From a virus (lineage: Duplodnaviria > Caudoviricetes): a stretch of DNA of 50,560 nucleotides. This document shows positions 1,024-50,087 of this stretch, piece after piece (positions within the stretch are counted from its first letter, which is position 1; every line of letters begins with the position of its first letter). Under the pieces are notes generated by a model. That model was not told the origin of the DNA and searched no databases. It saw only the letters and a list, made by a program, of their open reading frames with translations. The position numbers and the translations under genes were made by a program. Where the stretch lies: the IMG/VR virus record IMGVR_UViG_3300022538_000825, positions 1 to 50,560 of that record; one strand, 5' to 3'.

Positions 1024-2970
1024 ATGGGATTAATGACAGAGCGAATTGATACGGCTATTTCCGAGTTCTTTGATAAGGTAGACCGCCGGGGCCGTAGAGC
1101 TGGCCGTCTACACCGGGCTATGGATAAGGGTGCTGAGTACCTGAGACCCAAGATCAACGAGTGGATGGGGATTATGAGGAGAAAGATCCTCAGTGATCTT
1201 ACTCATAAGTTTGCTAAGTTTACTAACCTTACTAACTTTGCCAAGGATACAGCCCTAGAGATAACCACTAAGCTGACTGACTGGGAGTGGATCCAGGATA
1301 ACGGCAGGAGGATACTGAAGCCCGCTCTCCTGACGGTTCTGGGAAAGGGAGCGGATGAGGCATTTATCATCGGGGGAATTGAGGCGCGGTTTGATGTCCT
1401 CAACCCCAGAAGCGTGGCCTGGGCTGAGAAGCACTGCGCAAAGCTGGTCAGGGAGGTAACGGATGAGACGAGGGTCGCGATCAGGGATGTTATCAGACGG
1501 GGAGTAAAAGAGGGCAAGTCGGTACCGCACATGGCCAAGGAGATCAGGCCGCTGGTGGGTCTGACCTCCAGGCAGTCAATGGCAGTGGCCAATTATGACG
1601 AATGGCTGATTATGAACCGCCCGGAGCTGTCAGCCTCAGAGGTGTCAAGGCGGGTGGACGTCTACGCCCGGAGGATGCACCGGAGGCGGGCTAATATGAT
1701 TAGCCACACGGAATCGGCCTTTGCCGTGGACGAGGGGACGCTACAGGGATATGAGGAGGCGGAGGTTGAAAAGGTGGAGATCCTGCTGGCGGTGGGTGCC
1801 TGCGATGACTGCGTGACTCTAGCCCGGAAGAGATACAAACCCAGCGAGGCACACGGGATACTGCCTGCCCATCCAGTCTGTTATGATGATAAAACTGAGG
1901 TATATACCGATGAAGGATGGAAATTTTTCAAAGATTTAAATAATAAAGAACAAATCCTAAGTTTAAATCCTGTTACCTTTCAATTAGAATGGTTACCATA
2001 TGTTCAAAAAATAGAATACCATTATAAAGGAAAATTGTTTTATCTTCATAATAAATGGTTTAGCTTAGTAGCAACACCCGACCATAGCCAATTATTTGGT
2101 CGAAGGATAGACCCTAATGATAGGAAAAAAGTTAGATGGGAGATTAAAACCTTAGAAGAAATAGTAGGGTATAAAGAATTTATGCTTCCAAGGACTGCCC
2201 GATGGATAGGAATTAGTCCCCAATTTTTAGATATTAATGGACTTAAGTTAGAGACTAAACTGTTTTGTAGATTTATGGGTTACTGGCTTTCAGAAGGATC
2301 AGTTACCCAAAGAGCAAAAGAAAAAGGTTGGAACTGGTATCAAATATCTATTGCTCAGAAACTCAAAGGGCTAAATAAAATTTATGAAGATATAAAGTTA
2401 TTACCAGTAAAACTTGCAAAGGGAAAAAATCATATTACTTGCAATGATAAACGATTAGGAAAGTATTTATTGCAATTCGGTCATTCAGATCAAAAATTTA
2501 TTCCTCAGGAGATCAAACAACTTTCTCCGGAATTCATTAAAGAGTTTCTATTTGCTTTTAATTTTGGAGATGGTTCTACTAGAAATACAAAATGGCATAG
2601 TAAGGAAAAAGATTTTGAAAGTCGGGAATATACATTTTCTACCTCAAGTCCAAAATTGGCAGGAGATTTAGGGGAACTTATTTTAAAAGCCGGTGGCTAT
2701 CCATCTTATAGAATTAAAAATAACGCAGGGAAAGAGGTTAAGTTTAAAAACGGTGTTTATAAAATTAAATGGGATCAATATATAATATCTTGGAATCACT
2801 CTAAAAATGCCTATTTTGGTGATAAAAGAAAAAGATGGCTTATAGATAGTATAGATTACGATGGAATGGTTTATGATGTAGAATTACCGAGAAATCACAT
2901 TCTCTGGGTTAAACATAATGGAAAAACCTGCTTTAGTGGAAATTGCCGTTGCTGCTGGAGTTCGCTATGA
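1024..2970 (+). CDS. Head morphogenesis protein (MuF/SPP1 gp7-like) with intein
   Basis: Follows portal; RRANMISHTE, CDDC, and an HPV/CRC motif interrupted by an intein. Confidence 0.88.
   Translation: MGLMTERIDTAISEFFDKVDRRGRRAGRLHRAMDKGAEYLRPKINEWMGIMRRKILSDLTHKFAKFTNLTNFAKDTALEITTKLTDWEWIQDNGRRILKPALLTVLGKGADEAFIIGGIEARFDVLNPRSVAWAEKHCAKLVREVTDETRVAIRDVIRRGVKEGKSVPHMAKEIRPLVGLTSRQSMAVANYDEWLIMNRPELSASEVSRRVDVYARRMHRRRANMISHTESAFAVDEGTLQGYEEAEVEKVEILLAVGACDDCVTLARKRYKPSEAHGILPAHPVCYDDKTEVYTDEGWKFFKDLNNKEQILSLNPVTFQLEWLPYVQKIEYHYKGKLFYLHNKWFSLVATPDHSQLFGRRIDPNDRKKVRWEIKTLEEIVGYKEFMLPRTARWIGISPQFLDINGLKLETKLFCRFMGYWLSEGSVTQRAKEKGWNWYQISIAQKLKGLNKIYEDIKLLPVKLAKGKNHITCNDKRLGKYLLQFGHSDQKFIPQEIKQLSPEFIKEFLFAFNFGDGSTRNTKWHSKEKDFESREYTFSTSSPKLAGDLGELILKAGGYPSYRIKNNAGKEVKFKNGVYKIKWDQYIISWNHSKNAYFGDKRKRWLIDSIDYDGMVYDVELPRNHILWVKHNGKTCFSGNCRCCWSSL
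1879..2943 (+). mobile_element. Intein (355 aa) with LAGLIDADG homing endonuclease
   Basis: Starts CYDDKTEVYT; block B ATPDH; GYWLSEGS and FNFGDGS helices; VYDVELPRNH; ends SGN followed by +1 Cys; visibly AT-richer than the extein. Confidence 0.92.
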
Positions 2971-3026
2971 AATCAACAACTTATTTGAAATTGAAATCCG
3001 AGCTTATCAATAAAGGAGGATTAATT

Positions 3027-3758: not shown

Positions 3759-3874
3759 AGGAAATAACAGAAAATAAACTAAAAAAGGCCGAGAGGAACG
3801 AGCTTTATCATCTTAAGTTCAGGTTCCTGCAGATCTGGCGAAAGTTGGTGAAGAGCAATGTTATCAAAAAGTGA
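3749..3874 (+). CDS. 41-aa ORF absent from the track (MRIEEITENK...), possibly the frameshifted N-terminus of the next gene
   Basis: ATG 3749 overlaps the upstream stop, TGA 3872-3874 overlaps the start of ORF 3858; fills the apparent gap. Confidence 0.5.
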   Translation: MRIEEITENKLKKAERNELYHLKFRFLQIWRKLVKSNVIKK

Positions 3875-5120
3875 GCTCCTGAGTAAATATGAGATTCTAA
3901 CGGCTGAAATGAAAAAGAGGGAGTTGAAGCTCGGAGAGAATACGCCTCTGGATGTGGCTCTGGGCGTGGCTCTGTTTAAACGGGCTATGCTAGGGATAGA
4001 CGTTACCCGCCTCAGTGACGTAGTGGTAGTCCCCGATTATATCACCATCGGGGGGGGATTCGTTAAGTCTCCCAGGGATGTAAAGGATCTTGACCTGGTT
4101 ATGCGCCAGGATGAGGGGGACAGGGATGAAGGGACGGAGCTTAAGATCTCCCGTCTAGTCAAGAAACAGACCGGGAAGGAATGCCGCTTTGTTTATAGCA
4201 AGAGTGGACCGCATAGCAATTATATCCCGGCGTTTGATCTAGTGCTGAGGGCTAAGGATACTACTAGGCGGGTTAAGGTTAAAGAGGGCTATGGGAAGGC
4301 GACGAAGGAGACGAAGATAATCTGGGTTATCCCGAAGGTCTACATCCCACGTATGGGGGGCTATGCCCACGAGCACAGCAAGAACGAGTTCTCACGGAAT
4401 ATTGTAAAGTGGAGAGCCGATGTCACCAATGAGGAGTACCTTGAGGAGTTCGGCACCCTGCTACATAAGGCCATTAAGGATAAGCTGGGCACCGCCTGGG
4501 AGGTCCTAACTTATCCAGGGGAGGTTGATTCCGGGAGGCCGGTTCATCAGCTAGTTAAATGGCTGGCTAAGAAGATGAAGATAATTTATAGATCAATACA
4601 GACTCAGAATCCCACAGATTTTAGCGGTAAAAGAGTCCTGATTATAGATGATATAGTAGCCTCGGGTGCGACAGCAAGGAAGGCAGTTAAAAGAGTCCGG
4701 GACGGGAATGCCAAAGTGATAGGATTTGCTGCTCTTGGCAGGTCAAAGCCGAAGATGAAGGAAAGATTCTGGCTGGAAAAAGCGGACAAAGAGGGCGCTG
4801 AGGAGATCCTGCCCGCACTAAAGGATTACGAGGATCTCCTGCACCATATCCACACTAAGGGGGACGGGGAAGAGGAGATCCACCACTGCCTCATTCTCGA
4901 CCATATAGCCAATATGTTTGAGCAGGCGCACCTGTGGATTAAGGACGGAAAGATCTATTTGAATGAAAAGGAGATTAAAGAGGGTGTGTTCCACGTAATA
5001 AAGGATCTGGAGCCTACCCAGGAAGTCGTCTGGTCGGACAAAGAGGCTGAGGAGAATAAGATAACGGCTAAGAAAATGAAGGTAGGGATGACTCTAAGCC
5101 AAAAGGCTAAGGAGTGGTGA
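3858..5120 (+). CDS. Multidomain protein: Pol-beta-type nucleotidyltransferase-like domain + type I phosphoribosyltransferase domain
   Basis: IGGGF-x7-KDLDLV (G[GS]...DxD) and PRPP-loop VLIIDDIVASGAT. Confidence 0.72.
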   Translation: MLSKSELLSKYEILTAEMKKRELKLGENTPLDVALGVALFKRAMLGIDVTRLSDVVVVPDYITIGGGFVKSPRDVKDLDLVMRQDEGDRDEGTELKISRLVKKQTGKECRFVYSKSGPHSNYIPAFDLVLRAKDTTRRVKVKEGYGKATKETKIIWVIPKVYIPRMGGYAHEHSKNEFSRNIVKWRADVTNEEYLEEFGTLLHKAIKDKLGTAWEVLTYPGEVDSGRPVHQLVKWLAKKMKIIYRSIQTQNPTDFSGKRVLIIDDIVASGATARKAVKRVRDGNAKVIGFAALGRSKPKMKERFWLEKADKEGAEEILPALKDYEDLLHHIHTKGDGEEEIHHCLILDHIANMFEQAHLWIKDGKIYLNEKEIKEGVFHVIKDLEPTQEVVWSDKEAEENKITAKKMKVGMTLSQKAKEW

Positions 5121-27095: not shown

Positions 27096-27257
27096 ATGCG
27101 ACAAAAACAATTATTAGAACAGATACTAACTGAACTTCGCAACATACATTATCACGTTGAAAGAATAGAAGTTTTTTATCAGATGGCCCACAACATCAAG
27201 GAGAACGACAAAGGAGTGTGGGTTGAGGATAAAAAAGAGGAGGTACAGAAAAAATGA
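27096..27257 (+). CDS. 53-aa hypothetical protein (not in track)
   Basis: MRQKQLLEQ...; abuts upstream stop and overlaps downstream ATGA. Confidence 0.55.
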   Translation: MRQKQLLEQILTELRNIHYHVERIEVFYQMAHNIKENDKGVWVEDKKEEVQKK

Positions 27258-27988
27258 ATGAACATCGTTTAGGTTATAGACCTGAACCGCCAGATGAGAG
27301 AGATTTATTTGTGCCGATACCAGATTACGATTTACCTAAAAAGGTCGATTGGACGGAACAGCTTACTCAGATTAGAGACCAGGGGAATGAGGGTTCTTGC
27401 GTGGGCTTTGCTGTAACTGCCCTCAAGGAATTTCAGGAATGGAAACAATACGGTAGATCATTCGACTTATCTGAACGGTGGATTTATGAGTGGGCTAAAG
27501 AGCATGACGAATGGCCTGGCATAGACTATGAAGGCACGAGCATTCGGGGAGCCATGAAAGCCTTGTATCAACATGGCATCTGCGAAGAAAAATTCTGGCC
27601 ATACGTCCCCGGAGAAAAGGGGGAGCCAGATATAAAAGCAGCCGAAGATGCCTATGAATATCGCATTGAAAAATATCGCAGCTTGGTAATTCCCAGGAAA
27701 GACATTCGATTGATTAAGCGGGGGCTGCACGAGACTGGGCCAGTAGCAGTGGGCATGGCAGTTTACTCGACCTGGTTCTCTGTAGGAGAAGATGGCATTA
27801 TCAAAAAACCTTGCTGCTTCGCTAGGATTCTCGGCTACCACGCAGTGCTGGTCGTAGCATATGATAATAAGTTCGTCAAGATTAAGAATAGCTGGGGCGA
27901 ATACTGGGGAGCTGAAGGTTTCGGTTACATTGAGTTAGACTATTTTATGAAAATTCTTCATACGGCGTGGGCCGCGTATGATATGTAG
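27254..27988 (+). CDS. Papain-like (C1A) cysteine peptidase
   Basis: DQGNEGSCVGFA (Gln, Cys), GYHAV (His), KNSWG (Asn). Confidence 0.93.
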   Translation: MNEHRLGYRPEPPDERDLFVPIPDYDLPKKVDWTEQLTQIRDQGNEGSCVGFAVTALKEFQEWKQYGRSFDLSERWIYEWAKEHDEWPGIDYEGTSIRGAMKALYQHGICEEKFWPYVPGEKGEPDIKAAEDAYEYRIEKYRSLVIPRKDIRLIKRGLHETGPVAVGMAVYSTWFSVGEDGIIKKPCCFARILGYHAVLVVAYDNKFVKIKNSWGEYWGAEGFGYIELDYFMKILHTAWAAYDM

Positions 27989-41503: not shown

Positions 41504-42277
41504 ATGAATAAGACAAAGATTGAGTGGGTGAGGAATAAAGATGGTACTCAGGGATATACCTGGAACCCCGTTACGGGCTGTCTAGGACCGGATGGTACTC
41601 CTGAAAATCCGAAACGGTGTACCTACTGCTACGCTCACAAACTCGCCAAGGGGAGGCTGAAATCCCAATATCTCGGCATCCCTCCCTATCCTGATGATTT
41701 AACTCCTGCTCTTTTTGTCCCTAAGACTAACAAATCTGACCCCTTTGTTCCGCGTTTCTGGAGGCACCGTCTGAGAGAACCGTTCTGGCACAGAAAGCCC
41801 TGCAACATATTTGTCTGCTCAATGGGAGAGCTTTTCAGCGAGTATTATCCGGCTTCCTGGCTGGGAAATATCTTGCACACCTTTTACGGATGTCCTCAAC
41901 ACACATTCTTGATCCTTACAAAGAATCCCCCCCGATATGAAAGGATCTGTCTACCGAAAAATGTATGGCTTGGTGTGAGTATCAATAGACGCGAGGACTG
42001 GCATAGACTCTCAACGATAACGCCTTACGGTGTCTATCGCAGGTTTATCTCTTTTGAGCCTCTCTTAGACTATGTTCAGACTTCTAGCTCTTTGGGTGTT
42101 GAGTGGGTTATTGTCGGGGCTCAGACTAATCCTTATAGACCCCCTAAAAAATACTGGGTAGAGGATATTATCTATGAAGCACATAGACAGAGGATCCCGG
42201 TTTTCTTAAAGGATAATCTTAAGCCTCTTATGGGCAATAATCTAAGACAGGAGTTTCCAGGATGGATAGAAAAATAA
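41504..42277 (+). CDS. DUF5131 / Gp37Gp68 family (radical-SAM-like) protein
   Basis: TKIEW, WNPVTGC...CTYCYA, FVCSMGELF, LTKNP, SFEPL. Confidence 0.9.
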   Translation: MNKTKIEWVRNKDGTQGYTWNPVTGCLGPDGTPENPKRCTYCYAHKLAKGRLKSQYLGIPPYPDDLTPALFVPKTNKSDPFVPRFWRHRLREPFWHRKPCNIFVCSMGELFSEYYPASWLGNILHTFYGCPQHTFLILTKNPPRYERICLPKNVWLGVSINRREDWHRLSTITPYGVYRRFISFEPLLDYVQTSSSLGVEWVIVGAQTNPYRPPKKYWVEDIIYEAHRQRIPVFLKDNLKPLMGNNLRQEFPGWIEK

Positions 42278-42654
42278 AACTCGTGATCCCCCAGATACCA
42301 GAGTCGTACAATGTCATAAAAAACTGGCATTGGACCGGGAAGGATGAGTATAATAGGATTTGGTATTGGCAGGTTAAATCCGTATGGCTATTCTATCTTG
42401 GGGAACATTTGGCGATTCCCCCTTTGCCTTTCAAAAAAGCCAAATTGGATTTCTATATCTATTTCCCTTTCAAACACAGGAGGGATAAGCTGAATTATGC
42501 TTTGGGATTAAAGCCCGTGTTAGACCAGATAGCGGCTGAGGGGATAATTGTCGATGATAACTGGGAGAGAATAGAGGACCAGTATTATTCACGCATAGAT
42601 AAAATCAACCCGAGAACGGAAGTTATGATTGAGGAATTAAATGAGGATCCTTAG
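42262..42654 (+). CDS. RusA-like Holliday junction resolvase
   Basis: PESYN, RRDKLNY..LKPVLD, GIIVDDN, PRTEV. Confidence 0.75.
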   Translation: MDRKIKLVIPQIPESYNVIKNWHWTGKDEYNRIWYWQVKSVWLFYLGEHLAIPPLPFKKAKLDFYIYFPFKHRRDKLNYALGLKPVLDQIAAEGIIVDDNWERIEDQYYSRIDKINPRTEVMIEELNEDP

Positions 42655-43534
42655 AGTATTTCCCAAAAGGACAAGTTTTACCCCCAAAGATGATTTAGTG
42701 GCTATTGGCTATCCAGAGCTGTGGAGACCCGAAGTGGACGAGGTGCATATCTCTTGCCTGTTTACGTGGGATAAGATTTGTTGCGCACAGTTAAAAAGGG
42801 AGTGGTCGGCATATTATCCAGTGGTAAAGATTGGTGGTCCAGCCTATGAATTTGCTGAAAATGGGTTTATACCTAGGAGGTATGTTAGGAAAGGGATCAT
42901 ATTTACCTCAAGGGGATGTAATTTTACCTGTCCTTGGTGCTTGGTTCCTATGATAGAAGGGAAATTTAGAGCATTAAAGATGATCACTCCGGGCAATGTA
43001 ATCCAGGACAACAACATTCTCCTGGCTAACGCAGGCCATTTAGCGAAAGTGTTCTCAATGCTCAAAACCCAGCGGGCAGTACGGTTTCTAGGGGGGCTGG
43101 ATGTTAGGATATTAAAGCACTGGCACATCGAGGAACTGAGAGGTCTCCGGATCAAGGAGCTATGGTTGGCCTTGGACAGTTGGCATATTCAAAGGCAATT
43201 CGAGAAAATAGTTGGGGAGCTGAAAAGGGCAGGTTTTACTCGCCACCAGATAAGATGTTATGTTCTGGCCGGATTCAATGAGCCGATTCAGGAGGCCGAG
43301 GATAGGTTGCGGTTCGCCTATGAGTGCGGGGCTTTGCCCTTCGTGCAGCTATACCAGCCCCCTTTAGCATTTAAAAGAATGGGTAGAATGACTGCAACTA
43401 AACAGGTCTACATAGACGGCAAGCCTTACTTTCTTTGCCGATATGCGACGCAAACCATAGTCTCATCCGGGGCTAAAGTCGTGCCTATCCGGGGAGTAGG
43501 AGTTATTCGGTTTTTTCCCATGGGGTTAAACTGA
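42641..43534 (+). CDS. Radical SAM protein
   Basis: TSRGCNFTCPWC (CxxxCxxC), DNNIL, GGLD, YVLAGF. Confidence 0.88.
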   Translation: MRILRVFPKRTSFTPKDDLVAIGYPELWRPEVDEVHISCLFTWDKICCAQLKREWSAYYPVVKIGGPAYEFAENGFIPRRYVRKGIIFTSRGCNFTCPWCLVPMIEGKFRALKMITPGNVIQDNNILLANAGHLAKVFSMLKTQRAVRFLGGLDVRILKHWHIEELRGLRIKELWLALDSWHIQRQFEKIVGELKRAGFTRHQIRCYVLAGFNEPIQEAEDRLRFAYECGALPFVQLYQPPLAFKRMGRMTATKQVYIDGKPYFLCRYATQTIVSSGAKVVPIRGVGVIRFFPMGLN

Positions 43535-45398: not shown

Positions 45399-45649
45399 AA
45401 CGAAAGAGATTACCCTGGGCCTGGTTCAGGCATGGCTTGATTTCAATTATGTGGAGTAGCCAGCTCGTATTTGGGGCTCATCGCAACCGGCATACACTTA
45501 TGTTTGTGTGGGGTTCGAGAATCAAGTACGGGATTACTATTTTTCCTAAAGATATTTGGATCCACGTATGGTTGCCGAAGTGGTGTCAGGGTAGGGGGTA
45601 CTATATTAGCATCGGATTGTGGCTATTTTCTATCCATAGGGGGTATTGA
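45395..45649 (+). CDS. Hypothetical Trp-rich protein
   Basis: Overlap-coupled on both sides. Confidence 0.5.
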   Translation: MKRKRLPWAWFRHGLISIMWSSQLVFGAHRNRHTLMFVWGSRIKYGITIFPKDIWIHVWLPKWCQGRGYYISIGLWLFSIHRGY

Positions 45650-46881
45650 TGGAGATAAAGACGGTTAAAATAGACGAGTTAAAGGTATTTGAGGGAAATC
45701 CTAAGAAGCATCCAGAAGAACAAATAAACAAGATAGTTCGCTCTTTCTCAGAATATGGTTGGACTAATCCTATCCTTGCGACAAAGGATAATATGATTGT
45801 CGCTGGTCACGCTAGGGTAGAGGCGGCCAAGAAAGCAGGAATAAGAGAGGTACCGGTAATATATCTTCCATTTGAGGGGAAGAAAGCCTTAGCCTATGCA
45901 ATTGCAGATAATAAACTGGCTGAAAGGGAATGGGATTTTGGCAAGATGGCTGACTTATTAACGGAACTTGATGACGGTCAATTTAATCTAGAGCTCACAG
46001 GTTTCGATATAGAGGAAGTAGAGAAGATTATGAATTGGACGCCAGCTCAGTTTAGACCAGGGGCAGGCTATGCAAAGGTAGATCCTGAGAAGATTAAAGA
46101 CTTAACACTATCGGATACAGAAAAGGATAAATTTCATAATTACGACACTTTTCTAGTTCAATATTCAGGGGGACGGGACTCTACTGTGGCCCTATGGTGG
46201 GCTAAGAAGAACTTCCCAGAGAGAAGAATTGTAGCTGTTTACTCTGATCCGGGCGTGGAATTCCCAGGGATGGGAGCTGCGGTGGAAGATGTAACGCAGT
46301 TTTTGGGGGTGGAGCTGGAAGCGGTAAAGCCAAAAACGGAGTGGTGGATCTGGATTAAGGCCAATGGATGGCCGTCCATGATTTATAGACCCTGTCAGGC
46401 TGTGTTTGTTTTCACGCCGATAAGTGAAGTGATACGGAAATTTAACTCCAAAAAGACACTATTGGTTGACGGAAGCCGTGCGAAACAGGTGATAAGAGGA
46501 AGCAAAAAAGGGAAAGACACCAAACTTCCAAGTCTGCAATATAGTAAGGAGACAAAAGATTTCAAGGCGTATCACCCTACGTATGCTCTATCAGATAAGG
46601 ATGTATGGAATATAGTCCAGAGTGAGAAAATTCCCATTTGGAGAGGTTATGAAATGGGGTTTGTACGCTCGGCTTGCTGGTGTTGTCCTTTTCAGTGTGG
46701 AGTGCAGGCTTATATGCTCCAGAAACATTATCCCGGTCTGGCCGATGAGATACGTTATTGGGAGAAGCGGTTGGGAAGTGGGTTTTGTGTACGAGGAAAG
46801 AAAGTAGATAAATTTGATGATAAGCTCAGAATGGGAAGGAAGAAGCTAAAGGTTGATGACTTTGATGCCATTCGATATTAG
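45646..46881 (+). CDS. ParB-like N-terminal domain fused to PAPS-reductase-family (PP-loop) domain
   Basis: GWTNPI..IVAGHAR..ADNKL; YSGGRDS, DPGVEFP, DGSRAKQ, RSACWCCPF. Confidence 0.88.
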   Translation: MMEIKTVKIDELKVFEGNPKKHPEEQINKIVRSFSEYGWTNPILATKDNMIVAGHARVEAAKKAGIREVPVIYLPFEGKKALAYAIADNKLAEREWDFGKMADLLTELDDGQFNLELTGFDIEEVEKIMNWTPAQFRPGAGYAKVDPEKIKDLTLSDTEKDKFHNYDTFLVQYSGGRDSTVALWWAKKNFPERRIVAVYSDPGVEFPGMGAAVEDVTQFLGVELEAVKPKTEWWIWIKANGWPSMIYRPCQAVFVFTPISEVIRKFNSKKTLLVDGSRAKQVIRGSKKGKDTKLPSLQYSKETKDFKAYHPTYALSDKDVWNIVQSEKIPIWRGYEMGFVRSACWCCPFQCGVQAYMLQKHYPGLADEIRYWEKRLGSGFCVRGKKVDKFDDKLRMGRKKLKVDDFDAIRY

Positions 46882-47229
46882 AAGTTCCCCTGTGAATCCT
46901 GTTCTATCGCAGGAAGGTGAGTTTTTACATAGAAAGGCTTTTTGACAGTTGTGTTCTAGGGCTATTTCTAAAGTCTTTTTAGCCCCCAGGATAAAACGAG
47001 ATGATACATTGCACCCTGTAACGTCATAAAGAGTAGAATTCTGCTTGTTTTGTAGAGGAGCAGCGGGGCGAGGAACAGGAAGACCTCCTAGTTGTTCAGG
47101 ACAGACAAAGATTAAGTTGCATTTCTTAGAATACCGAGCAATTTTCGCAGGACTGGGGACAGACCTACCGTGATAGCGGCAAGGCTCTCCAGTAAAGCAC
47201 AGGGAGAATAAGACGCTTTCTTTGTTCAT
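46846..47229 (-). CDS. DUF523 / 2-thiouracil desulfurase (TudS)-family protein
   Basis: SLCFTGEPCRYHG, VCPEQLGGLPVPRP, KNSPSC. Confidence 0.88.
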   Translation of the reverse strand: MNKESVLFSLCFTGEPCRYHGRSVPSPAKIARYSKKCNLIFVCPEQLGGLPVPRPAAPLQNKQNSTLYDVTGCNVSSRFILGAKKTLEIALEHNCQKAFLCKNSPSCDRTGFTGELLISNGIKVINL

Positions 47230-47247
47230 ATTTTACCTCCATTATAC

Positions 47248-47276
47248 ATTATAGCACAGAAATGCCATAAAGTCAA
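47248..47276 (-). promoter_or_regulatory. Moron promoter for DUF523 gene
   Basis: TTGACT-N17-TATAAT with TG extension, then SD GGAGGT. Confidence 0.75.
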
Positions 47277-47305: not shown

Positions 47306-48496
47306 TTGGAAATAAAAAGAATGAAATTGGTTGATATAAAGCTTGCTCGTTATAATCCCCGGAAAGATCTCAAGCCAGGCGATCCTGAATATGAGAAGAT
47401 AAAAAGGAGTATTGACGAATTTGACTGTGTAGAGCCGCTGGTGTGGAATAGGAGAAGCAAGAGACTTATCGGGGGTCACCAAAGGTTGAAAATCCTTAAG
47501 GAGAAGGGAATAAAAGAGTTCGAGGTATCGGTGGTTGATTTAGAGGAGCAAAAAGAGAAGGCTCTTAATGTTGCTTTGAATAAGATAGAGGGAGAGTGGG
47601 ACTTTACCAAGCTGGCGGACCTGATGACGGAGCTGGACGACGGAGAGTTTGACCTGGAGTTGACGGGGTTTGATCTTAAGGAGATTGAGGAGATAATGAA
47701 CTGGACTCCCAAAGAGGAAAAGCCTTTTGATGCGGCGGCTGAAGCCGAAAAGATAAAAGAGCCGAAGAGCAGACGAGGGGAGATTTACCAGCTAGGCAGG
47801 CATAGATTGATGTGCGGGGATGCGACTAACAAGGAAGATGTGGAGAGGCTGATGGGTGGGGAGAAGGGGGATTTATTACTGACTGACCCCCCCTATAATG
47901 TTGGAAAAGACTATAAAAATGAAAACTTGTCAGAACCCGAAATGGTAAATTTTTTCAATGGGTGGATGAAAATGGCGGTTAATAGTCTAAAAGACAAAGC
48001 GGCAGTTTACGTTTTTGCCGCTAATAGAACTCTTCCGATTATATTATCTTGTTTTTATCAGAATTTCTATTATTCGAGGACAATTTGCTGGTATAAACCT
48101 GATGCAATGGGAGTTTATTCGGCTGATTATTTTTTTCAATGGGAGCCGATTTTATATGGCGGGAAGAATGGTTCGCCCCATGTAGAAAAAAGAGGTAAAT
48201 TTTCCCGTGACCATTGGGAAGTTCCTGTTTTTGAAATAAAGGGCAAGAATACTCCTGAAACGGCTGTGCATCCCACAAGGAAGCCATTGGATGTTATTAT
48301 TGAGCCGATTAATGTTAATTCGATTAAAGACAATATAGTTATTGACCTGTTTGGCGGCTCAGGCACAACTCTAATAGCCTGCGAGCAAATCAACCGCATC
48401 TGCTATATGATGGAAATAGACCCTATTTACTGTGACGTAATCATCAACCGCTGGGAGAAACATACAGGGGAAAAAGCGGAGTTAATAAAGCAATGA
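47306..48496 (+). CDS. ParB-like N-terminal domain fused to N6A/N4C DNA methyltransferase
   Basis: YNPRK..IGGHQR; TDPPYN, HPTRKP, DLFGGSGTT. Confidence 0.93.
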   Translation: MEIKRMKLVDIKLARYNPRKDLKPGDPEYEKIKRSIDEFDCVEPLVWNRRSKRLIGGHQRLKILKEKGIKEFEVSVVDLEEQKEKALNVALNKIEGEWDFTKLADLMTELDDGEFDLELTGFDLKEIEEIMNWTPKEEKPFDAAAEAEKIKEPKSRRGEIYQLGRHRLMCGDATNKEDVERLMGGEKGDLLLTDPPYNVGKDYKNENLSEPEMVNFFNGWMKMAVNSLKDKAAVYVFAANRTLPIILSCFYQNFYYSRTICWYKPDAMGVYSADYFFQWEPILYGGKNGSPHVEKRGKFSRDHWEVPVFEIKGKNTPETAVHPTRKPLDVIIEPINVNSIKDNIVIDLFGGSGTTLIACEQINRICYMMEIDPIYCDVIINRWEKHTGEKAELIKQ

Positions 48497-48906
48497 AGCT
48501 AAATATTCGCCAGATCAAATTCATTGACAATCTTTTCCTGGGTATGAGCTTAGTTAAGGCTTATAGGGAGGCAGGCTATAAGGGAAGAGGTCAATCGGAT
48601 TATAGCGATAGCTCCCGGTTGCTTAGAAAAGCTAATGTTTTAGCAGAATTGAAAGCCCGCATTGAGACTCACAGGGAAACTGTAAGTGCTCGGCTAATGA
48701 CGATTACAGACGGAGCTACTAATGCTTATATCAGGATCCTCAAGTTAAAGGCTGGGAATAATCCTGCCTTAATTGAAATTCAAAGGAAAGTGGCCCAAGA
48801 CTTATTCGACCGGGCGGGCCTGAAGCCGGTGGAGAGAGTGGCACTAGGGGGCGATAAGGAGCTGGAGCCGCTCAGAGTTATAATTGAAAAGGGAAAAGAT
48901 GGGTGA
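48493..48906 (+). CDS. terS: Terminase small subunit
   Basis: QIKFID...AYREAGY...SSRLL; upstream of TerL. Confidence 0.8.
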   Translation: MKLNIRQIKFIDNLFLGMSLVKAYREAGYKGRGQSDYSDSSRLLRKANVLAELKARIETHRETVSARLMTITDGATNAYIRILKLKAGNNPALIEIQRKVAQDLFDRAGLKPVERVALGGDKELEPLRVIIEKGKDG

Positions 48907-50087
48907 ATGGGAAAGTAGTCCTTCATAAATACCAGGGTAAAGCCATGCTATCACCCGCCCGCTTCATCGGCTTAATAGCCGGGTCAGGCGGCGGTAAAAC
49001 GTTCTTTGGCCCTATCTGGCTACTCAGGGAGGTCCGCAATCATCCGCAAGACTCGTTCTTTGTCATAGCCCCGACGTTCCCCCTGTTCAACAGGACGACC
49101 CTTCCGGAGTTCAGGAGGCGGTTCGACTTCGAGCCCGGGATCAAGGGGACTTATAAGGAGCAAAAAAAGGAGTACCGGCTGGGGAGCGGGGGTATTATCT
49201 ACTTTGGCTCTGCTGATAGACCGGATAGCCTAGAGGGAGGCCAGGTCAGGGCCGCTTGGGTTGATGAGGCTGGCCAGATTAAACGTGCCTCCTGGGAGGC
49301 TATCCAGCGCAGGCTGGGCTTCTATATGGGTCGCGCCCTGCTTACGACAACCCCTTACTCGCTCAACTGGCTCAAGACAGATTTCTATGACCACTGGAAG
49401 AAAAGGGATCCGGATTATGATGTGATCCAGTTTAAGTCCATTGATAGCCCTTATTACCCTAAGGATGAGTACAAGCGGGCTAAGAGGACTCTGGACAGCC
49501 GTATATTTGAGATGCGCTATGACGCGCTCTTTCGTAAGATGGCTGGGCTGGTATATGCTGAGTTCACGCAGAGGAACATAAAAGAGCCGGTAGGGATCAA
49601 ATTCAAGCGGGTGATCGCGGGGGTTGATTGGGGATTTTACCCTGATCCGGCGGCGATAATCCTCCACGGGGAGGATGCCCGGGGGAGGGTCTGGGTATTC
49701 TACGAATACTACCAGCTACGGAAGACCCCGGATGAGGTCTGCGCCGTCGCCAAGAAGCTGAACAAGGACTACAAAGTGGAGGTCTTCTGGTGCGGCCAGG
49801 ATGAGCCAGGAAGTATAGAGATGTTTCGCAGGGCTGGACTGAATGCCAAAGCCAATGAAGTGATGTCCGTCGCTGAGGGCCAGGGGGCTGTGACTGATCT
49901 TATAAAGAATGACGCATTACTTGTATCAAAGCGCTGTCCCAACTGGCTGGACGAGGTGGAGACGCATTATTATCCGGAGGGGAAGGTCAAGCCGGAGGGC
50001 CCCGACCACGCCCTGAGCGCCTCCAGATACGCTATTGTCAATATGAAACAAATAACTGAAAAAAGTAAAGTTTATATAGTGGGGTGA
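48903..50087 (+). CDS. terL: Terminase large subunit
   Basis: AGSGGGKT, WVDEAG, TTTP, GVDWG, DHALSASRY. Confidence 0.93.
   Translation: MNGKVVLHKYQGKAMLSPARFIGLIAGSGGGKTFFGPIWLLREVRNHPQDSFFVIAPTFPLFNRTTLPEFRRRFDFEPGIKGTYKEQKKEYRLGSGGIIYFGSADRPDSLEGGQVRAAWVDEAGQIKRASWEAIQRRLGFYMGRALLTTTPYSLNWLKTDFYDHWKKRDPDYDVIQFKSIDSPYYPKDEYKRAKRTLDSRIFEMRYDALFRKMAGLVYAEFTQRNIKEPVGIKFKRVIAGVDWGFYPDPAAIILHGEDARGRVWVFYEYYQLRKTPDEVCAVAKKLNKDYKVEVFWCGQDEPGSIEMFRRAGLNAKANEVMSVAEGQGAVTDLIKNDALLVSKRCPNWLDEVETHYYPEGKVKPEGPDHALSASRYAIVNMKQITEKSKVYIVG

What the first reader, a model, noticed from the sequence alone, without database searches (positions are those of the whole stretch)
45646..47276. ParB-PAPS-reductase-like enzyme paired tail-to-tail with a thiouracil-desulfurase-family moron: possible sulfur write/erase system
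Seen: PP-loop SGGRDS + CWCC protein whose 3' end overlaps by 36 bp a DUF523 gene that has its own promoter and three conserved Cys motifs. Knowledge: PAPS-reductase-family DndC takes part in DNA phosphorothioation, related PP-loop enzymes thiolate nucleosides, and DUF523/TudS removes sulfur from thiouracils via an Fe-S cluster. Inference: the phage may thio-modify its DNA before packaging and recycle or detoxify thio-bases, or the antisense moron may regulate the writer. I know of no described system with this pairing.
Basis: partly seen in the sequence, partly recalled or inferred. Interest (0 to 1): 0.75.

Follow-up and report, generated by a model that had tools for sequence, protein, structure and literature searches.

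The report
Conserved viral ParB-PAPS plus short-TudS gene pair
A temperate phage carries a DNA-tethered ATP-using iron-sulfur enzyme next to a trimmed thiouracil-desulfidase-like protein, and this undescribed pair recurs in many bacterial and archaeal viruses, which points to a sulfur-based DNA modification system that has not been tested.

Summary
A ParB_N + PAPS-reductase-like gene (45646..46881, +) and a DUF523/TudS-family gene (46846..47229, -) overlap by 36 bp at their 3' ends. A near-consensus sigma-70-like site lies upstream of the DUF523 gene.

The pairing is not a local accident. 39 of 46 viral ParB-PAPS lineages and 18 of 18 MAG loci have a DUF523 gene beside the ParB-PAPS gene. So does the cultured archaeal virus Blf4. 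The module usually sits just upstream of the terminase genes.

All 46 linked DUF523 proteins lack the 15-18-residue loop of canonical TudS. All 8 unlinked ones (4 viral, 4 from the protein database) keep it. The Fe-S cysteines, Glu45 and Ser104 are retained.

The PAPS domain has a canonical SGGxDS PP-loop and three invariant cysteines, and no CysH-type C-terminal cysteine. It is therefore an adenylating Fe-S enzyme, not a sulfate-assimilation gene.

Best reading, inferred and untested: a compact sulfur-inserting DNA modification module, with short DUF523 as the sulfur-mobilising partner. A write/erase pair remains a live rival.

I found no paper describing the pairing. No sulfur mark has been shown.

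The parts
45646..46881 (+). ParB_N + PAPS-reductase-like (PP-loop) fusion protein, 411 aa from TTG. The likely start is the ATG at 45649.
   Evidence: The AF2 model has pLDDT 79.2. The best Foldseek matches are APS/PAPS reductases, followed by ParB N-domains.
45649..46065 (+). ParB/Srx-type N-terminal domain and linker. It is 43% identical over 155 aa to the N-terminus of the neighbouring ParB-methyltransferase.
   Evidence: E 9e-33. One search matches ParB/Spo0J/Noc N-domains at E about 1e-12. G53 is invariant in both alignments, R56 in the 17-row one, and H54 is nearly invariant.
46165..46182 (+). PP-loop motif SGGRDS.
   Evidence: Read. S173, G175, D177 and S178 are invariant in 120 family members; G174 is invariant in 17 and nearly so in 120.
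46393..46395 (+). Invariant Cys (C249 in ATG numbering), a putative Fe-S ligand.
   Evidence: Invariant in 17 and in 120 sequences.
46675..46686 (+). CWCC motif. The first Cys (C343) is invariant. The last (C346) is invariant in 17 sequences and conserved in at least 90% of 120.
   Evidence: A weak alignment (E 0.81) places them on C228 and C231 of APS reductase 2goy.
46846..47229 (-). Loop-deleted TudS/DUF523-family [4Fe-4S] protein, 127 aa.
46846..46881 (.). 36-bp convergent overlap of the two 3' ends.
47248..47276 (-). Sigma-70-like promoter match, TTGACT-17-(TG)TATAAT, upstream of the DUF523 gene.
   Evidence: A consensus match only.
47306..48496 (+). Context: ParB_N + N6/N4 DNA methyltransferase, transcribed divergently from the DUF523 gene.
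   Evidence: phrog_498, E 1.8e-123.
48493..50087 (+). Context: small terminase (weak match) and large terminase directly downstream.
   Evidence: Terminase_6N E 2.2e-9; Terminase_2 E 0.0062, below its cut-off.

Best explanation
The two genes form a self-contained module that is inherited together and moves between viruses of bacteria and archaea. It sits at the junction before the packaging genes.

Proposed mechanism:
1. The ParB N-domain brings the enzyme onto double-stranded DNA. The same domain is fused to a DNA methyltransferase next door.
2. The PP-loop domain uses ATP to adenylate an oxygen of the DNA, most likely a backbone phosphate as in DndC, SspD and BrxP.
3. A [4Fe-4S] cluster held by three invariant cysteines delivers sulfide.
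4. The loop-deleted TudS-like protein is the sulfur-handling partner. It most likely mobilises sulfur from a thio-pyrimidine nucleotide or from sulfide on its open Fe site and hands it to the writer. This is the role that cysteine desulfurase plays in Dnd, Ssp and BREX-4.

Shown here: gene anatomy, family membership, conserved residues, linkage, and the loop-deleted subfamily.
Inferred: DNA as target, sulfur chemistry, and the direction of sulfur flow.

My odds: the module is a real functional unit, 0.95. It performs a sulfur modification of DNA, about 0.55. DUF523 acts as sulfur mobiliser or donor, about 0.35-0.4.
For: Linkage:
- 5 of 5 records holding distant ParB-PAPS relatives (30% identity) carry PF04463 directly downstream.
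- 23 of 28 DUF523-anchored viral loci have a ParB-PAPS gene within 5 kb. Two of the other five are cut by contig ends.
- 39 of 46 ParB-PAPS clusters at 90% identity have DUF523: 28 convergent, 9 co-directional, 2 divergent.
- 18 of 18 MAG loci have it. Their titles name Methanosarcinales, Planctomycetota, Akkermansia, Bacillota and Desulfobacterales.
- The cultured Methanoculleus virus Blf4 has gp05 and gp06 directly upstream of the large terminase.

Co-inheritance and mobility:
- The distance matrices of the two proteins correlate: Mantel r 0.454 over 33 pairs, with 0 of 2000 permutations reaching it.
- Neighbouring genes carry large terminases of at least four different families.

Specialised partner:
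- 46 of 46 linked DUF523 proteins have 3-4 residues where 8 of 8 unlinked ones have 15-18.
- Both contig-end cases are also short.
- Retained in the linked set: C11, C43 and E45 in 46 of 46, S104 and P105 in 46 of 46, C107 in 45 of 46, an aromatic at position 19 in 46 of 46, and R18 in 41 of 46.
- These match the cluster ligands, catalytic residues and base- and phosphate-binding residues named for TudS (PMC10611767, section 9 and passages).

Writer:
- The PP-loop and C249, C343 and C346 are conserved in 120 sequences.
- Among defence-system models the best matches are BrxP (1.4e-19), SspD (2.3e-11) and DndC (5.9e-6).
- The fold is that of APS/PAPS reductases.

DNA as target:
- The ParB domain is 43% identical to that of the adjacent ParB-methyltransferase.
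- The PAPS domain occurs fused to a D12 methyltransferase and an ATP-dependent DNA ligase in P0202.
- A phage ParB activates a DNA dioxygenase specifically on dsDNA (PMC13229309, abstract).

Analogy with phosphorothioation (PT) systems:
- They need a PAPS-reductase-domain protein, an NTPase and a cysteine desulfurase (PMC12914056 passages).
- The window genome has no Aminotran_5, Rhodanese or ThiS gene.
- None of these is among the 25 commonest Pfam families in 131 neighbouring ORFs.

Dispensability and co-expression:
- 7 of 46 lineages lack DUF523. This parallels DndA, which is often replaced by housekeeping enzymes (PMC10853773 passage).
- Co-directional genes that abut or overlap in 9 lineages fit co-expression.
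Against: - No chemical evidence of any sulfur mark exists for any of these viruses.
- The PAPS domain matches BrxP no better than the generic Pfam model (67.8 against 62.9 bits). It is far below the curated DndC cut-off (15.8 against 290.4 bits).
- In 28 of 39 lineages the DUF523 gene is convergent. In the window it has its own promoter-like site in a temperate phage with an integrase and a CI-like repressor. That fits separate timing better than a stoichiometric partner.
- The retained uracil-stacking and catalytic residues fit a thio-pyrimidine substrate. That substrate could equally be a thio-base in DNA, which is the eraser reading.
- TudS chemistry is hydrolytic, and no sulfur hand-over from a TudS-type cluster to another protein is known.
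- A FastTree of 123 DUF523 sequences gave no clean split between short and long forms. The best clade held 18 of 24 long forms plus 1 short form, with support 0.67.
- The retrieval alignments were built from members already known to be linked, so the co-occurrence fractions may be inflated.
Confidence: 0.4

Rival explanations
1. Write/erase pair. ParB-PAPS thiolates DNA. The loop-deleted TudS-like enzyme, with its opened active site, removes sulfur from a flipped-out thio-nucleotide in a polymer. The target could be host or off-target nucleic acid, incoming related phage DNA in a lysogen, or mis-modified sites.
For: - The TudS catalytic set is retained: Cys triad, E45, S104, P105, aromatic 19.
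- The loop carrying the sugar-clamping Tyr110 of TudS is lost (PMC10611767 section 9). That would open the site to a polymer.
- RudS shows that a TudS domain can demodify a nucleic acid polymer, namely s4U in tRNA (PMC11417400 abstract and passages).
- The convergent arrangement in 28 of 39 lineages, and the promoter-like site in a temperate phage, allow different timing for the two genes.
Against: - 9 of 39 lineages have co-directional genes that abut or overlap. That implies co-expression and a futile cycle.
- 7 of 46 writer lineages lack the supposed antidote or eraser.
- No DNA thio-base and no PT eraser is known (my recall). PAPS-reductase-type DNA writers make P-S bonds, not C=S bonds.
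Confidence: 0.2
2. Split thiolase that makes a DNA thio-base. ParB-PAPS only adenylates a base carbonyl. The short DUF523 supplies, in trans, the catalytic [4Fe-4S]/[4Fe-5S] cluster that inserts sulfur, as the single-chain TtuA and NcsA do for tRNA. The product would be a thio-pyrimidine in phage DNA.
For: - The profile and fold searches place TtuA, NcsA and LarE, which are [4Fe-4S] PP-loop sulfur-transfer enzymes, among the relatives.
- Short DUF523 keeps a nucleotide-shaped pocket next to a three-Cys cluster.
- The perfect partition of loop state by linkage fits an obligate partner.
Against: - ParB-PAPS has its own three invariant cysteines, placed as in APS reductase. It does not obviously need a second cluster.
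- 7 of 46 lineages lack DUF523.
- No fused form was found, although that search was weak.
Confidence: 0.15
3. The two proteins do unrelated or non-sulfur jobs. ParB-PAPS is an adenylating enzyme for another DNA or RNA modification, such as an amidation, or a regulator like IbrA/IbrB. The DUF523 protein salvages or detoxifies thio-uracil nucleotides for the phage or the lysogen. Linkage would reflect shared transfer only.
For: - PP-loop enzymes catalyse many non-sulfur reactions. GMP synthase and QueC are among the matches.
- Stand-alone TudS recycles 4-thio-UMP (PMC10611767 abstract).
- In the window the DUF523 gene has a moron-like layout.
Against: - Linkage persists from 84% down to about 23% identity, in both gene orientations, and next to four terminase families.
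- Canonical long-loop DUF523 in viruses is never linked (0 of 4). Short-loop DUF523 is always linked (46 of 46 with readable context).
- The IbrA-like ParB + PAPS-DUF3440 pairs never carry DUF523 (0 of 29 loci; Pfam checked for one of them).
Confidence: 0.12
4. Auxiliary metabolic gene. The PAPS reductase boosts assimilatory sulfate reduction in the host, which is how viral PAPS reductases are commonly annotated.
For: - The Pfam name.
- Papers that read viral PAPS reductases this way, for example PMC8879888 (passages).
Against: - The protein is fused to a ParB DNA-binding domain.
- Its PP-loop is the canonical SGGxDS, whereas APS reductase 2goy shows SGAED in the alignment.
- No conserved cysteine follows the CP motif, so the CysH-type catalytic C-terminal Cys is absent.
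- The gene lies among DNA-modification and packaging genes.
Confidence: 0.02

Closest known systems
TudS (stand-alone DUF523, [4Fe-4S] thiouracil / 4-thio-UMP desulfidase; PDB 6Z92 and related entries)
   Same: - It is a Pfam PF04463 member (86.1 bits) and matches TudS at E 6.4e-12.
- The Cys triad, Glu45, Ser101-equivalent, Pro102-equivalent, Arg17 and Tyr18 equivalents are kept.
   Different: - It lacks the 15-18-residue loop after SPSC that carries Tyr110.
- It has an extra, nearly invariant Cys17.
- The Ser103-equivalent varies: S 32, A 9, M 4, T 1 of 46.
- It is found next to a ParB-PAPS gene, which has not been reported for TudS.
RudS (TudS-DUF1722 fusion; demodifies s4U in tRNA; includes a phage copy, RudS_vir of Escherichia phage 1H12)
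   Same: A TudS domain that acts on a nucleic-acid polymer and that occurs in phages (PMC11417400 passages).
   Different: - There is no DUF1722 domain here, and no longer fused form was found (a weak search).
- The partner is a separate ParB-PAPS gene.
DNA phosphorothioation writers DndC, SspD and BrxP, which work with an NTPase and a cysteine desulfurase (Dnd, Ssp, BREX type 4)
   Same: - A PAPS-reductase-domain PP-loop protein with Fe-S cysteines.
- An association with a ParB-superfamily NTPase, as DndB is in Dnd.
- The best defence-model matches are BrxP, SspD and DndC.
- The same three-part logic of writer, NTPase and sulfur mobiliser (PMC12914056 and PMC10853773 passages).
   Different: - It is viral, not a host defence island.
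- The NTPase is a fused ParB N-domain, not DndD, SspC or BrxC.
- There is no DUF4007 domain, and the middle Cys of CWCC is not conserved.
- There is no cysteine desulfurase; a TudS-like Fe-S protein stands in its place.
- Scores are far below the curated DndC cut-off.
IbrA/IbrB-like phage pairs (a separate ParB gene plus a PAPS_reduct-DUF3440 gene)
   Same: The ParB superfamily combined with the PAPS-reductase superfamily in phages.
   Different: - The genes are separate and lie 1.5-2.5 kb apart.
- A DUF3440 domain is present.
- The PAPS domain is distant (E about 1e-8 to my profile).
- 0 of 29 such loci carry DUF523.
ParB-fused or ParB-dependent phage DNA-modifying enzymes (ParB-methyltransferases, phrog_498; ParB-dependent thymine dioxygenases)
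   Same: - The same N-terminal ParB module: 43% identical to the neighbouring ParB-methyltransferase.
- A ParB protein is needed for dioxygenase action on dsDNA (PMC13229309 abstract).
   Different: The catalytic domain is a PP-loop/Fe-S enzyme rather than a methyltransferase or a dioxygenase.
TtuA and NcsA ([4Fe-4S] PP-loop tRNA thiolases)
   Same: - A PP-loop plus a three-Cys cluster that carries the sulfide.
- Both are among the structural and profile matches.
   Different: - A different PP-loop subfamily with tRNA as substrate.
- Single-chain enzymes without a TudS-like partner.

Membership tests
TudS / DUF523 (PF04463) | The whole-protein Pfam score exceeds the gathering cut-off. | tested here: met
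   86.1 bits against 34.7. Blf4 gp06 scores 82.0 bits.
TudS / DUF523 (PF04463) | Three Cys ligands of the [4Fe-4S] cluster (TudS C10, C43, C104). | tested here: met
   Window C11, C43 and C107 align with them. In the linked set they are kept in 46/46, 46/46 and 45/46.
TudS / DUF523 (PF04463) | Catalytic Glu45, Ser101 and Ser103. | tested here: inconclusive
   E45 and S104 are kept in 46/46. The Ser103-equivalent is S in 32, A in 9, M in 4 and T in 1 of 46. The window itself has all three.
TudS / DUF523 (PF04463) | The substrate pocket: Arg17, Tyr18, Pro102 and Tyr110 (PMC10611767 section 9). | tested here: not met
   R18, Y19 and P105 are present. The loop that carries Tyr110 is deleted in 46 of 46 linked proteins.
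TudS / DUF523 (PF04463) | Desulfidase activity on 2- or 4-thiouracil or on 4-thio-UMP. | not testable with these tools
   This needs an anaerobic enzyme assay or complementation of a uracil auxotroph.
Assimilatory PAPS/APS reductase (CysH) | PAPS-reductase fold. | tested here: met
   The top Foldseek matches are 2goy, 6vpu and 1sur, with E 6e-7 to 2e-6. Pfam PF01507 scores 62.9 bits.
Assimilatory PAPS/APS reductase (CysH) | A conserved catalytic Cys in the C-terminal tail. I recall the motif as ECGLH. | tested here: not met
   There is no conserved Cys after the CP motif in 17 or in 120 sequences.
Assimilatory PAPS/APS reductase (CysH) | A degenerate PP-loop, because the substrate is a sulfonucleotide rather than ATP. 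This feature is recalled. | tested here: not met
   The window has the canonical SGGRDS. APS reductase 2goy shows SGAED at the aligned place.
DndC (TIGR03183) | The score exceeds the curated equivalog cut-off. | tested here: not met
   15.8 bits against 290.4. The PADLOC DndC model gives E 5.9e-6.
DndC (TIGR03183) | A [4Fe-4S] cluster on three Cys, plus a distinct Cys dyad (PMC10853773 passage). | tested here: inconclusive
   Three invariant or nearly invariant Cys are present (C249, C343, C346). The adjacent CC in CWCC is not conserved, since the middle Cys varies. Cluster binding was not tested.
BrxP / SspD (BREX-4 and Ssp phosphorothioation writers) | A PAPS-reductase domain similar to the family models. 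| tested here: met
   BrxP E 1.4e-19 over profile positions 131-331 of 779. SspD E 2.3e-11.
BrxP / SspD (BREX-4 and Ssp phosphorothioation writers) | A DUF4007/SspB-like DNA-binding part and a BrxC/SspC ATPase partner (PMC12914056, PMC12839542). | tested here: not met
   Only the PAPS part of the BrxP model matches. The N-terminus is ParB_N. No such ATPase appears among the 25 commonest neighbour families.
IbrA/IbrB-like pair | PAPS_reduct with a C-terminal DUF3440 domain, encoded apart from the ParB gene. | tested here: not met
   The window protein has no DUF3440 hit and is a fusion. The DUF3440 type forms a separate group.
ParB/Srx superfamily N-domain | A ParB_N match together with a conserved G-x-x-R box. 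| tested here: met
   PF02195 scores 30.2 bits against 26.3. The PDB profile search gives E about 1e-12. G53 is invariant in both alignments, R56 in the 17-row one, and H54 is nearly invariant. NTP binding was not tested.

The most novel reading that the evidence does not exclude
These viruses put a sulfur mark of a kind not yet seen in natural DNA, either a thio-pyrimidine base or a virus-made phosphorothioate. The loop-deleted TudS-like protein would be the first dedicated enzyme that removes or edits a DNA sulfur mark. Together they would form a reversible write/erase system carried by viruses of both bacteria and methanogenic archaea.
Probability: 0.2. Interest if true: 0.92.

Novelty: new variant of a known kind. 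Interest (0 to 1): 0.72.

Why it matters
Viral 'PAPS reductases' are routinely counted as sulfur-assimilation auxiliary genes, for example in PMC8879888. For this clade that reading is wrong. The protein is tethered to DNA, has the motifs of an adenylating enzyme, and travels with a specialised Fe-S partner.

If the module writes sulfur into DNA, it would be a two-gene writer of viral origin. That is far more compact than Dnd, Ssp or BREX-4, and it would use an Fe-S desulfidase-type protein where those systems use a cysteine desulfurase.

It would also give the TudS family a second biological role. The loop-deleted sequence signature predicts the genomic context exactly in this sample.

Two tractable systems exist for testing: the cultured archaeal virus Blf4 and prophages in Akkermansia-type genomes.

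Possible payoffs are a new anti-restriction strategy, new tools for site-specific DNA thiolation, and corrected annotation for a family with several hundred clusters at 50% identity. The count of 969 at E <= 1e-30 includes some matches to the ParB part alone.

Tried and rejected
- Complex prediction. I submitted the PAPS domain (residues 150-410, 116-row alignment) with DUF523 (67-row alignment). The verdict was 'no answer', score 0.01 in both runs, and the controls were not folded. I do not use this for or against binding.
- Search for fused forms. The search for homologous proteins with lengths 'longer' on DUF523 scored none of 75 candidates. The tool itself calls this weak evidence.
- Expression. 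The look-up of sequencing runs listed no RNA holder. The one strong DNA holder may be the source sample. I did not use read laying, because only contigs of DNA runs were on offer.
- DNA-level search against isolate phages: no match.
- PDB chain 21fy_C, 'PptA'. It matched the whole PAPS domain of the family profile at E 7e-4. I could not identify it. Two literature searches found no relevant paper. It did not appear among the listed Foldseek matches, whose library ends in April 2026. The single-sequence search did not reach it.
- TdpC, another phosphorothioation system. One search found it mentioned only in PMC12914056. I make no claim about it beyond that paper's one sentence.
- Monophyly of the short-loop DUF523 forms. 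A FastTree of 123 sequences and 121 columns, with the loop columns removed, gave no exact split between short and long forms. One short form (P0050) sits among the long forms. Six long forms lie outside the best long clade, but each has long-loop nearest neighbours. I therefore claim a signature, not a proven clade.
- Antisense regulation by the 36-bp overlap as the general logic. I rejected this because 9 of 39 lineages are co-directional and 2 are divergent.
- A cysteine desulfurase, rhodanese or ThiS partner in the window genome: none found.
Supplementary files of papers were not opened. The supplementary tables of PMC8879888 (viral PAPS reductases) and of PMC12914056 (gene neighbourhoods of PT genes) could hold relevant context that I did not see.


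Full report
THE WINDOW AND THE OBSERVATION

The window is a whole viral record of 50,560 bp, rated 100% complete by CheckV. It is a temperate tailed phage. It has a tyrosine integrase at 29415..30431 (-) and a CI-like HTH plus S24 peptidase repressor at 32427..33122 (-). It also has a DnaB-type helicase and small and large terminase genes at the right end.

At the coordinates of the finding, one search gives a 411-aa ORF at 45646..46881 (+). It starts at TTG, with an ATG one codon later. A 127-aa ORF lies at 46846..47229 (-). The two share 36 bp at their 3' ends.

Pfam scores the first as PAPS_reduct (E 5e-17) plus ParB_N (E 4.7e-7), and the second as 2-thiour_desulf/DUF523 (E 2.9e-24). All three exceed the curated cut-offs. 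The SGGRDS and CWCC motifs are present.

A TTGACT-17-TATAAT site with a TG extension, 11 of 12 matches, lies on the minus strand 19 bp upstream of the DUF523 ATG. The region does not hold more promoter-like sites than shuffles give, so this is a consensus match only.

THE PAIRING IS CONSERVED

The only close relative is an 84%-identical fragment with the same convergent, overlapping layout. The ParB-PAPS relatives at about 30% identity are more telling. In 5 of 5 records tested, a PF04463 gene lies directly downstream: on the same strand in three records and on the opposite strand in two.

I then anchored searches on each gene in turn.
- An alignment of short DUF523 proteins retrieved 28 viral loci. 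Of these, 23 have a PAPS gene within the 5-kb flank. By clusters that is 17 of 22. Two of the five without one are cut by the contig end right after the DUF523 gene.
- An alignment of 17 ParB-PAPS proteins retrieved 80 loci out of 222 relatives.
- Pooling all loci with a strong PAPS-domain hit (E < 1e-30 to my own HMM) gives 87 loci in 46 clusters at 90% identity. Of these clusters, 39 carry DUF523: 28 convergent downstream, 9 co-directional downstream, 2 divergent upstream. Seven have none.
- A scan of one genome per prokaryotic species gave 18 loci in MAGs. Their titles name Methanosarcinales, Planctomycetota, Akkermansia (seven), Verrucomicrobiales, Bacillota, Eubacteriales, Desulfobacterales and a delta-proteobacterium. 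All 18 have DUF523 next to the PAPS gene, and one of them is visibly decayed.
- Among isolate phages, the cultured archaeal virus Blf4/L4768 of Methanoculleus bourgensis has the pair as gp05 and gp06, immediately upstream of the large terminase. gp05 is annotated 'DNA modification methylase', but Pfam finds PAPS_reduct. gp06 is annotated 'hypothetical', but Pfam finds 2-thiour_desulf.

The fractions describe this clade and are not an unbiased census.

THE PAIR IS A MOBILE TWO-GENE CASSETTE

The two ORFs on each side of the pair in 38 cluster representatives (131 ORFs) include large terminases of at least four families: Terminase_6N in 7, GpA in 4, TerL_ATPase in 2 and Terminase_3 in 2. There are a few DNA methyltransferases. 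No cysteine desulfurase, rhodanese or ThiS appears among the 25 commonest families. The window genome also lacks all three.

The pairwise distances of the two proteins correlate: Mantel r 0.454 over 33 pairs, with 0 of 2000 permutations reaching it. This shows co-inheritance and does not by itself show function.

A second group of 29 loci has a separate ParB gene and a distant PAPS gene 1.5-2.5 kb away. The one I checked carries DUF3440, which is the IbrA/IbrB-like type. None of the 29 has DUF523. The association is therefore specific to the fused clade with the R-T-A-C-W-x-C-P motif.

THE LINKED DUF523 IS A DISTINCT, TRIMMED FORM

Against TudS (PDB 6Z92, E 6.4e-12), the window protein keeps these residues:
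- the three cluster ligands (C11, C43, C107);
- Glu45 and both serines (S104, S106);
- the residues that the TudS paper names for stacking the uracil (Tyr18, Pro102) and binding the phosphate (Arg17).
The source for the TudS residues is PMC10611767, section 9 and passages.

What is missing is the stretch after SPSC. In TudS that stretch carries Tyr110, which clamps the sugar.

I compared 46 linked proteins with 8 unlinked ones. The linked set was 38 viral cluster representatives, Blf4 and 7 MAG loci. The unlinked set was 4 viral DUF523 genes with no ParB-PAPS gene nearby, including Pseudomonas phage Y10, plus 4 long-loop hits from the protein database whose genomic context is unknown. All 46 linked proteins have 3-4 residues at that place. 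All 8 unlinked ones have 15-18. The two DUF523 genes cut off by contig ends are also short.

In the linked set, C11, C43, E45, S104, P105 and an aromatic at position 19 are kept in 46 of 46. C107 is kept in 45, C17 in 44 and R18 in 41. The Ser103-equivalent varies (S 32, A 9, M 4, T 1).

A tree built without the loop columns did not give a clean split between short and long forms. I therefore claim a signature that predicts context, not a proven clade.

THE WRITER CANDIDATE

Across 120 family members the following are invariant or nearly so: the PP-loop residues, C249, C343 and C346 (numbered from the ATG), a W-x-G-Y motif, and the R of R-T-A-C.

The AF2 model (pLDDT 79.2) matches APS/PAPS reductases best, followed by ParB N-domains, TtuA, NcsA and LarE. 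A weak alignment to APS reductase 2goy (E 0.81) puts C343 and C346 on that enzyme's C228 and C231. That these two are cluster ligands is my recollection.

The canonical SGGxDS loop and the absence of a conserved C-terminal cysteine argue against a true sulfonucleotide reductase and for an ATP-dependent adenylating enzyme.

Among defence-system models the best matches are BrxP (1.4e-19), SspD (2.3e-11) and DndC (5.9e-6). The match is at domain level only, and the curated DndC model is missed by far.

DNA as the target is supported in three ways:
- The ParB module is 43% identical to the N-terminus of the adjacent ParB-methyltransferase.
- The PAPS domain is fused to a D12 methyltransferase and an ATP-dependent DNA ligase in one large protein.
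- A phage ParB has been reported to activate a DNA dioxygenase specifically on dsDNA (PMC13229309 abstract).

The family is sizeable. 969 cluster representatives at 50% identity score E <= 1e-30, and at least a hundred of the listed ones are full length.

HOW IT MOST LIKELY WORKS

Established phosphorothioation systems need a PAPS-reductase-domain protein, an NTPase and a cysteine desulfurase (PMC12914056 passages; PMC10853773 passages). The viral module offers a one-to-one counterpart for each: the PAPS domain, the fused ParB NTPase-superfamily domain, and a desulfidase-type Fe-S protein.

My preferred reading is a compact sulfur-inserting DNA modifier that acts around packaging, with short DUF523 mobilising or carrying the sulfur. 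Three observations fit this:
- There is no other sulfur-mobilising gene in the window genome or among the commonest neighbour families.
- Seven lineages lack DUF523, much as DndA is often replaced by housekeeping enzymes.
- Nine lineages have co-directional genes that abut or overlap.

Against it stand three points. The convergent layout dominates. The window has a separate promoter-like site in a temperate phage. The intact thio-pyrimidine pocket equally suits an enzyme that removes sulfur from a thio-base in a polymer.

So does a split thiolase that makes a DNA thio-base. None of these readings is tested chemically.

COMPARISON WITH WHAT IS KNOWN, AND NOVELTY

The DUF523 protein is a member of the TudS Pfam family but fails one defining pocket feature, the Tyr110 loop. 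The PAPS domain belongs to the PAPS-reductase fold. It is not CysH, not DndC by the curated model, not BrxP or SspD in architecture, and not the IbrA type.

Four literature searches and passage searches in the key papers found no description of the pairing:
- The RudS paper has 0 occurrences of 'PAPS' and of 'ParB'.
- The TudS paper has 0 occurrences of 'phage' and of 'PAPS'.
- The Dnd reappraisal has 0 occurrences of 'DUF523' and of 'TudS'.
- In the Blf4 paper, 'PAPS', 'methylase' and 'ORF5' each occur 0 times.

Supplements were closed, and subscription journals are not covered.

I rate this a new variant of a known kind, namely PAPS-reductase-based DNA sulfur modification. There is a real chance that it is something categorically new.

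Noticed in passing
window 41504..43534: A DUF5131 protein (E 4.8e-36; also 'radical SAM mobile pair protein A', E 4.9e-23, below its cut-off) is followed by a 130-aa ORF with no family match. After that comes a radical-SAM-like protein (phrog_9298, E 2.8e-25). The three lie 2-4 kb upstream of the module and may form a second nucleic-acid modification cassette.
   Followed up: partly
window 3858..5120: A 420-aa protein with a phosphoribosyltransferase domain (Pribosyltran E 6.9e-9; weak PRTase-CE match) sits inside the structural gene block.
   Followed up: no
window 1024..2970: A 648-aa ORF has a weak Mu-F-like match and a weak LAGLIDADG match. GC falls to 0.32 in 2001..3000, against about 0.45 elsewhere. 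This may be an inserted homing-endonuclease or intein-like segment.
   Followed up: no
window 27254..27988: A papain-family cysteine protease domain (Peptidase_C1, E 1.5e-23) lies near the lysis and lysogeny region.
   Followed up: no
L006 3563..7568 (same layout in L136 and L137, Akkermansia MAGs): Here the pair is preceded by three further genes: a stand-alone ParB (about 200 aa), a 388-aa protein with an ABC-ATPase-like region, and a formyltransferase-like protein (Formyl_trans_N, E 2.7e-16). This suggests a larger DNA-modification island in these prophages.
   Followed up: partly
P0202 (1529 aa); L116 4743..7580: These are large multi-domain proteins. P0202 carries this PAPS domain together with a D12 DNA methyltransferase, an ATP-dependent DNA ligase and an XkdF-type protease. 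The L116 protein pairs it with a weak LigD 3'-phosphoesterase match and has no DUF523 nearby.
   Followed up: partly
L143 4953..5918: A decayed copy of the module in a delta-proteobacterial MAG. The PAPS ORF is short (204 aa) and the DUF523 gene is split into two frames.
   Followed up: no
PDB chain 21fy_C: A solved 270-residue protein named 'PptA' matches the whole PAPS domain of the family profile (E 7e-4). I could not find its paper, and it may be a characterised relative.
   Followed up: partly
L045 1242..2486 (NC_074642.1 gp05): Blf4/L4768 gp05 is annotated 'DNA modification methylase'. Pfam finds no methyltransferase domain in it, only PAPS_reduct. The label probably comes from the shared ParB N-domain.
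   Followed up: yes
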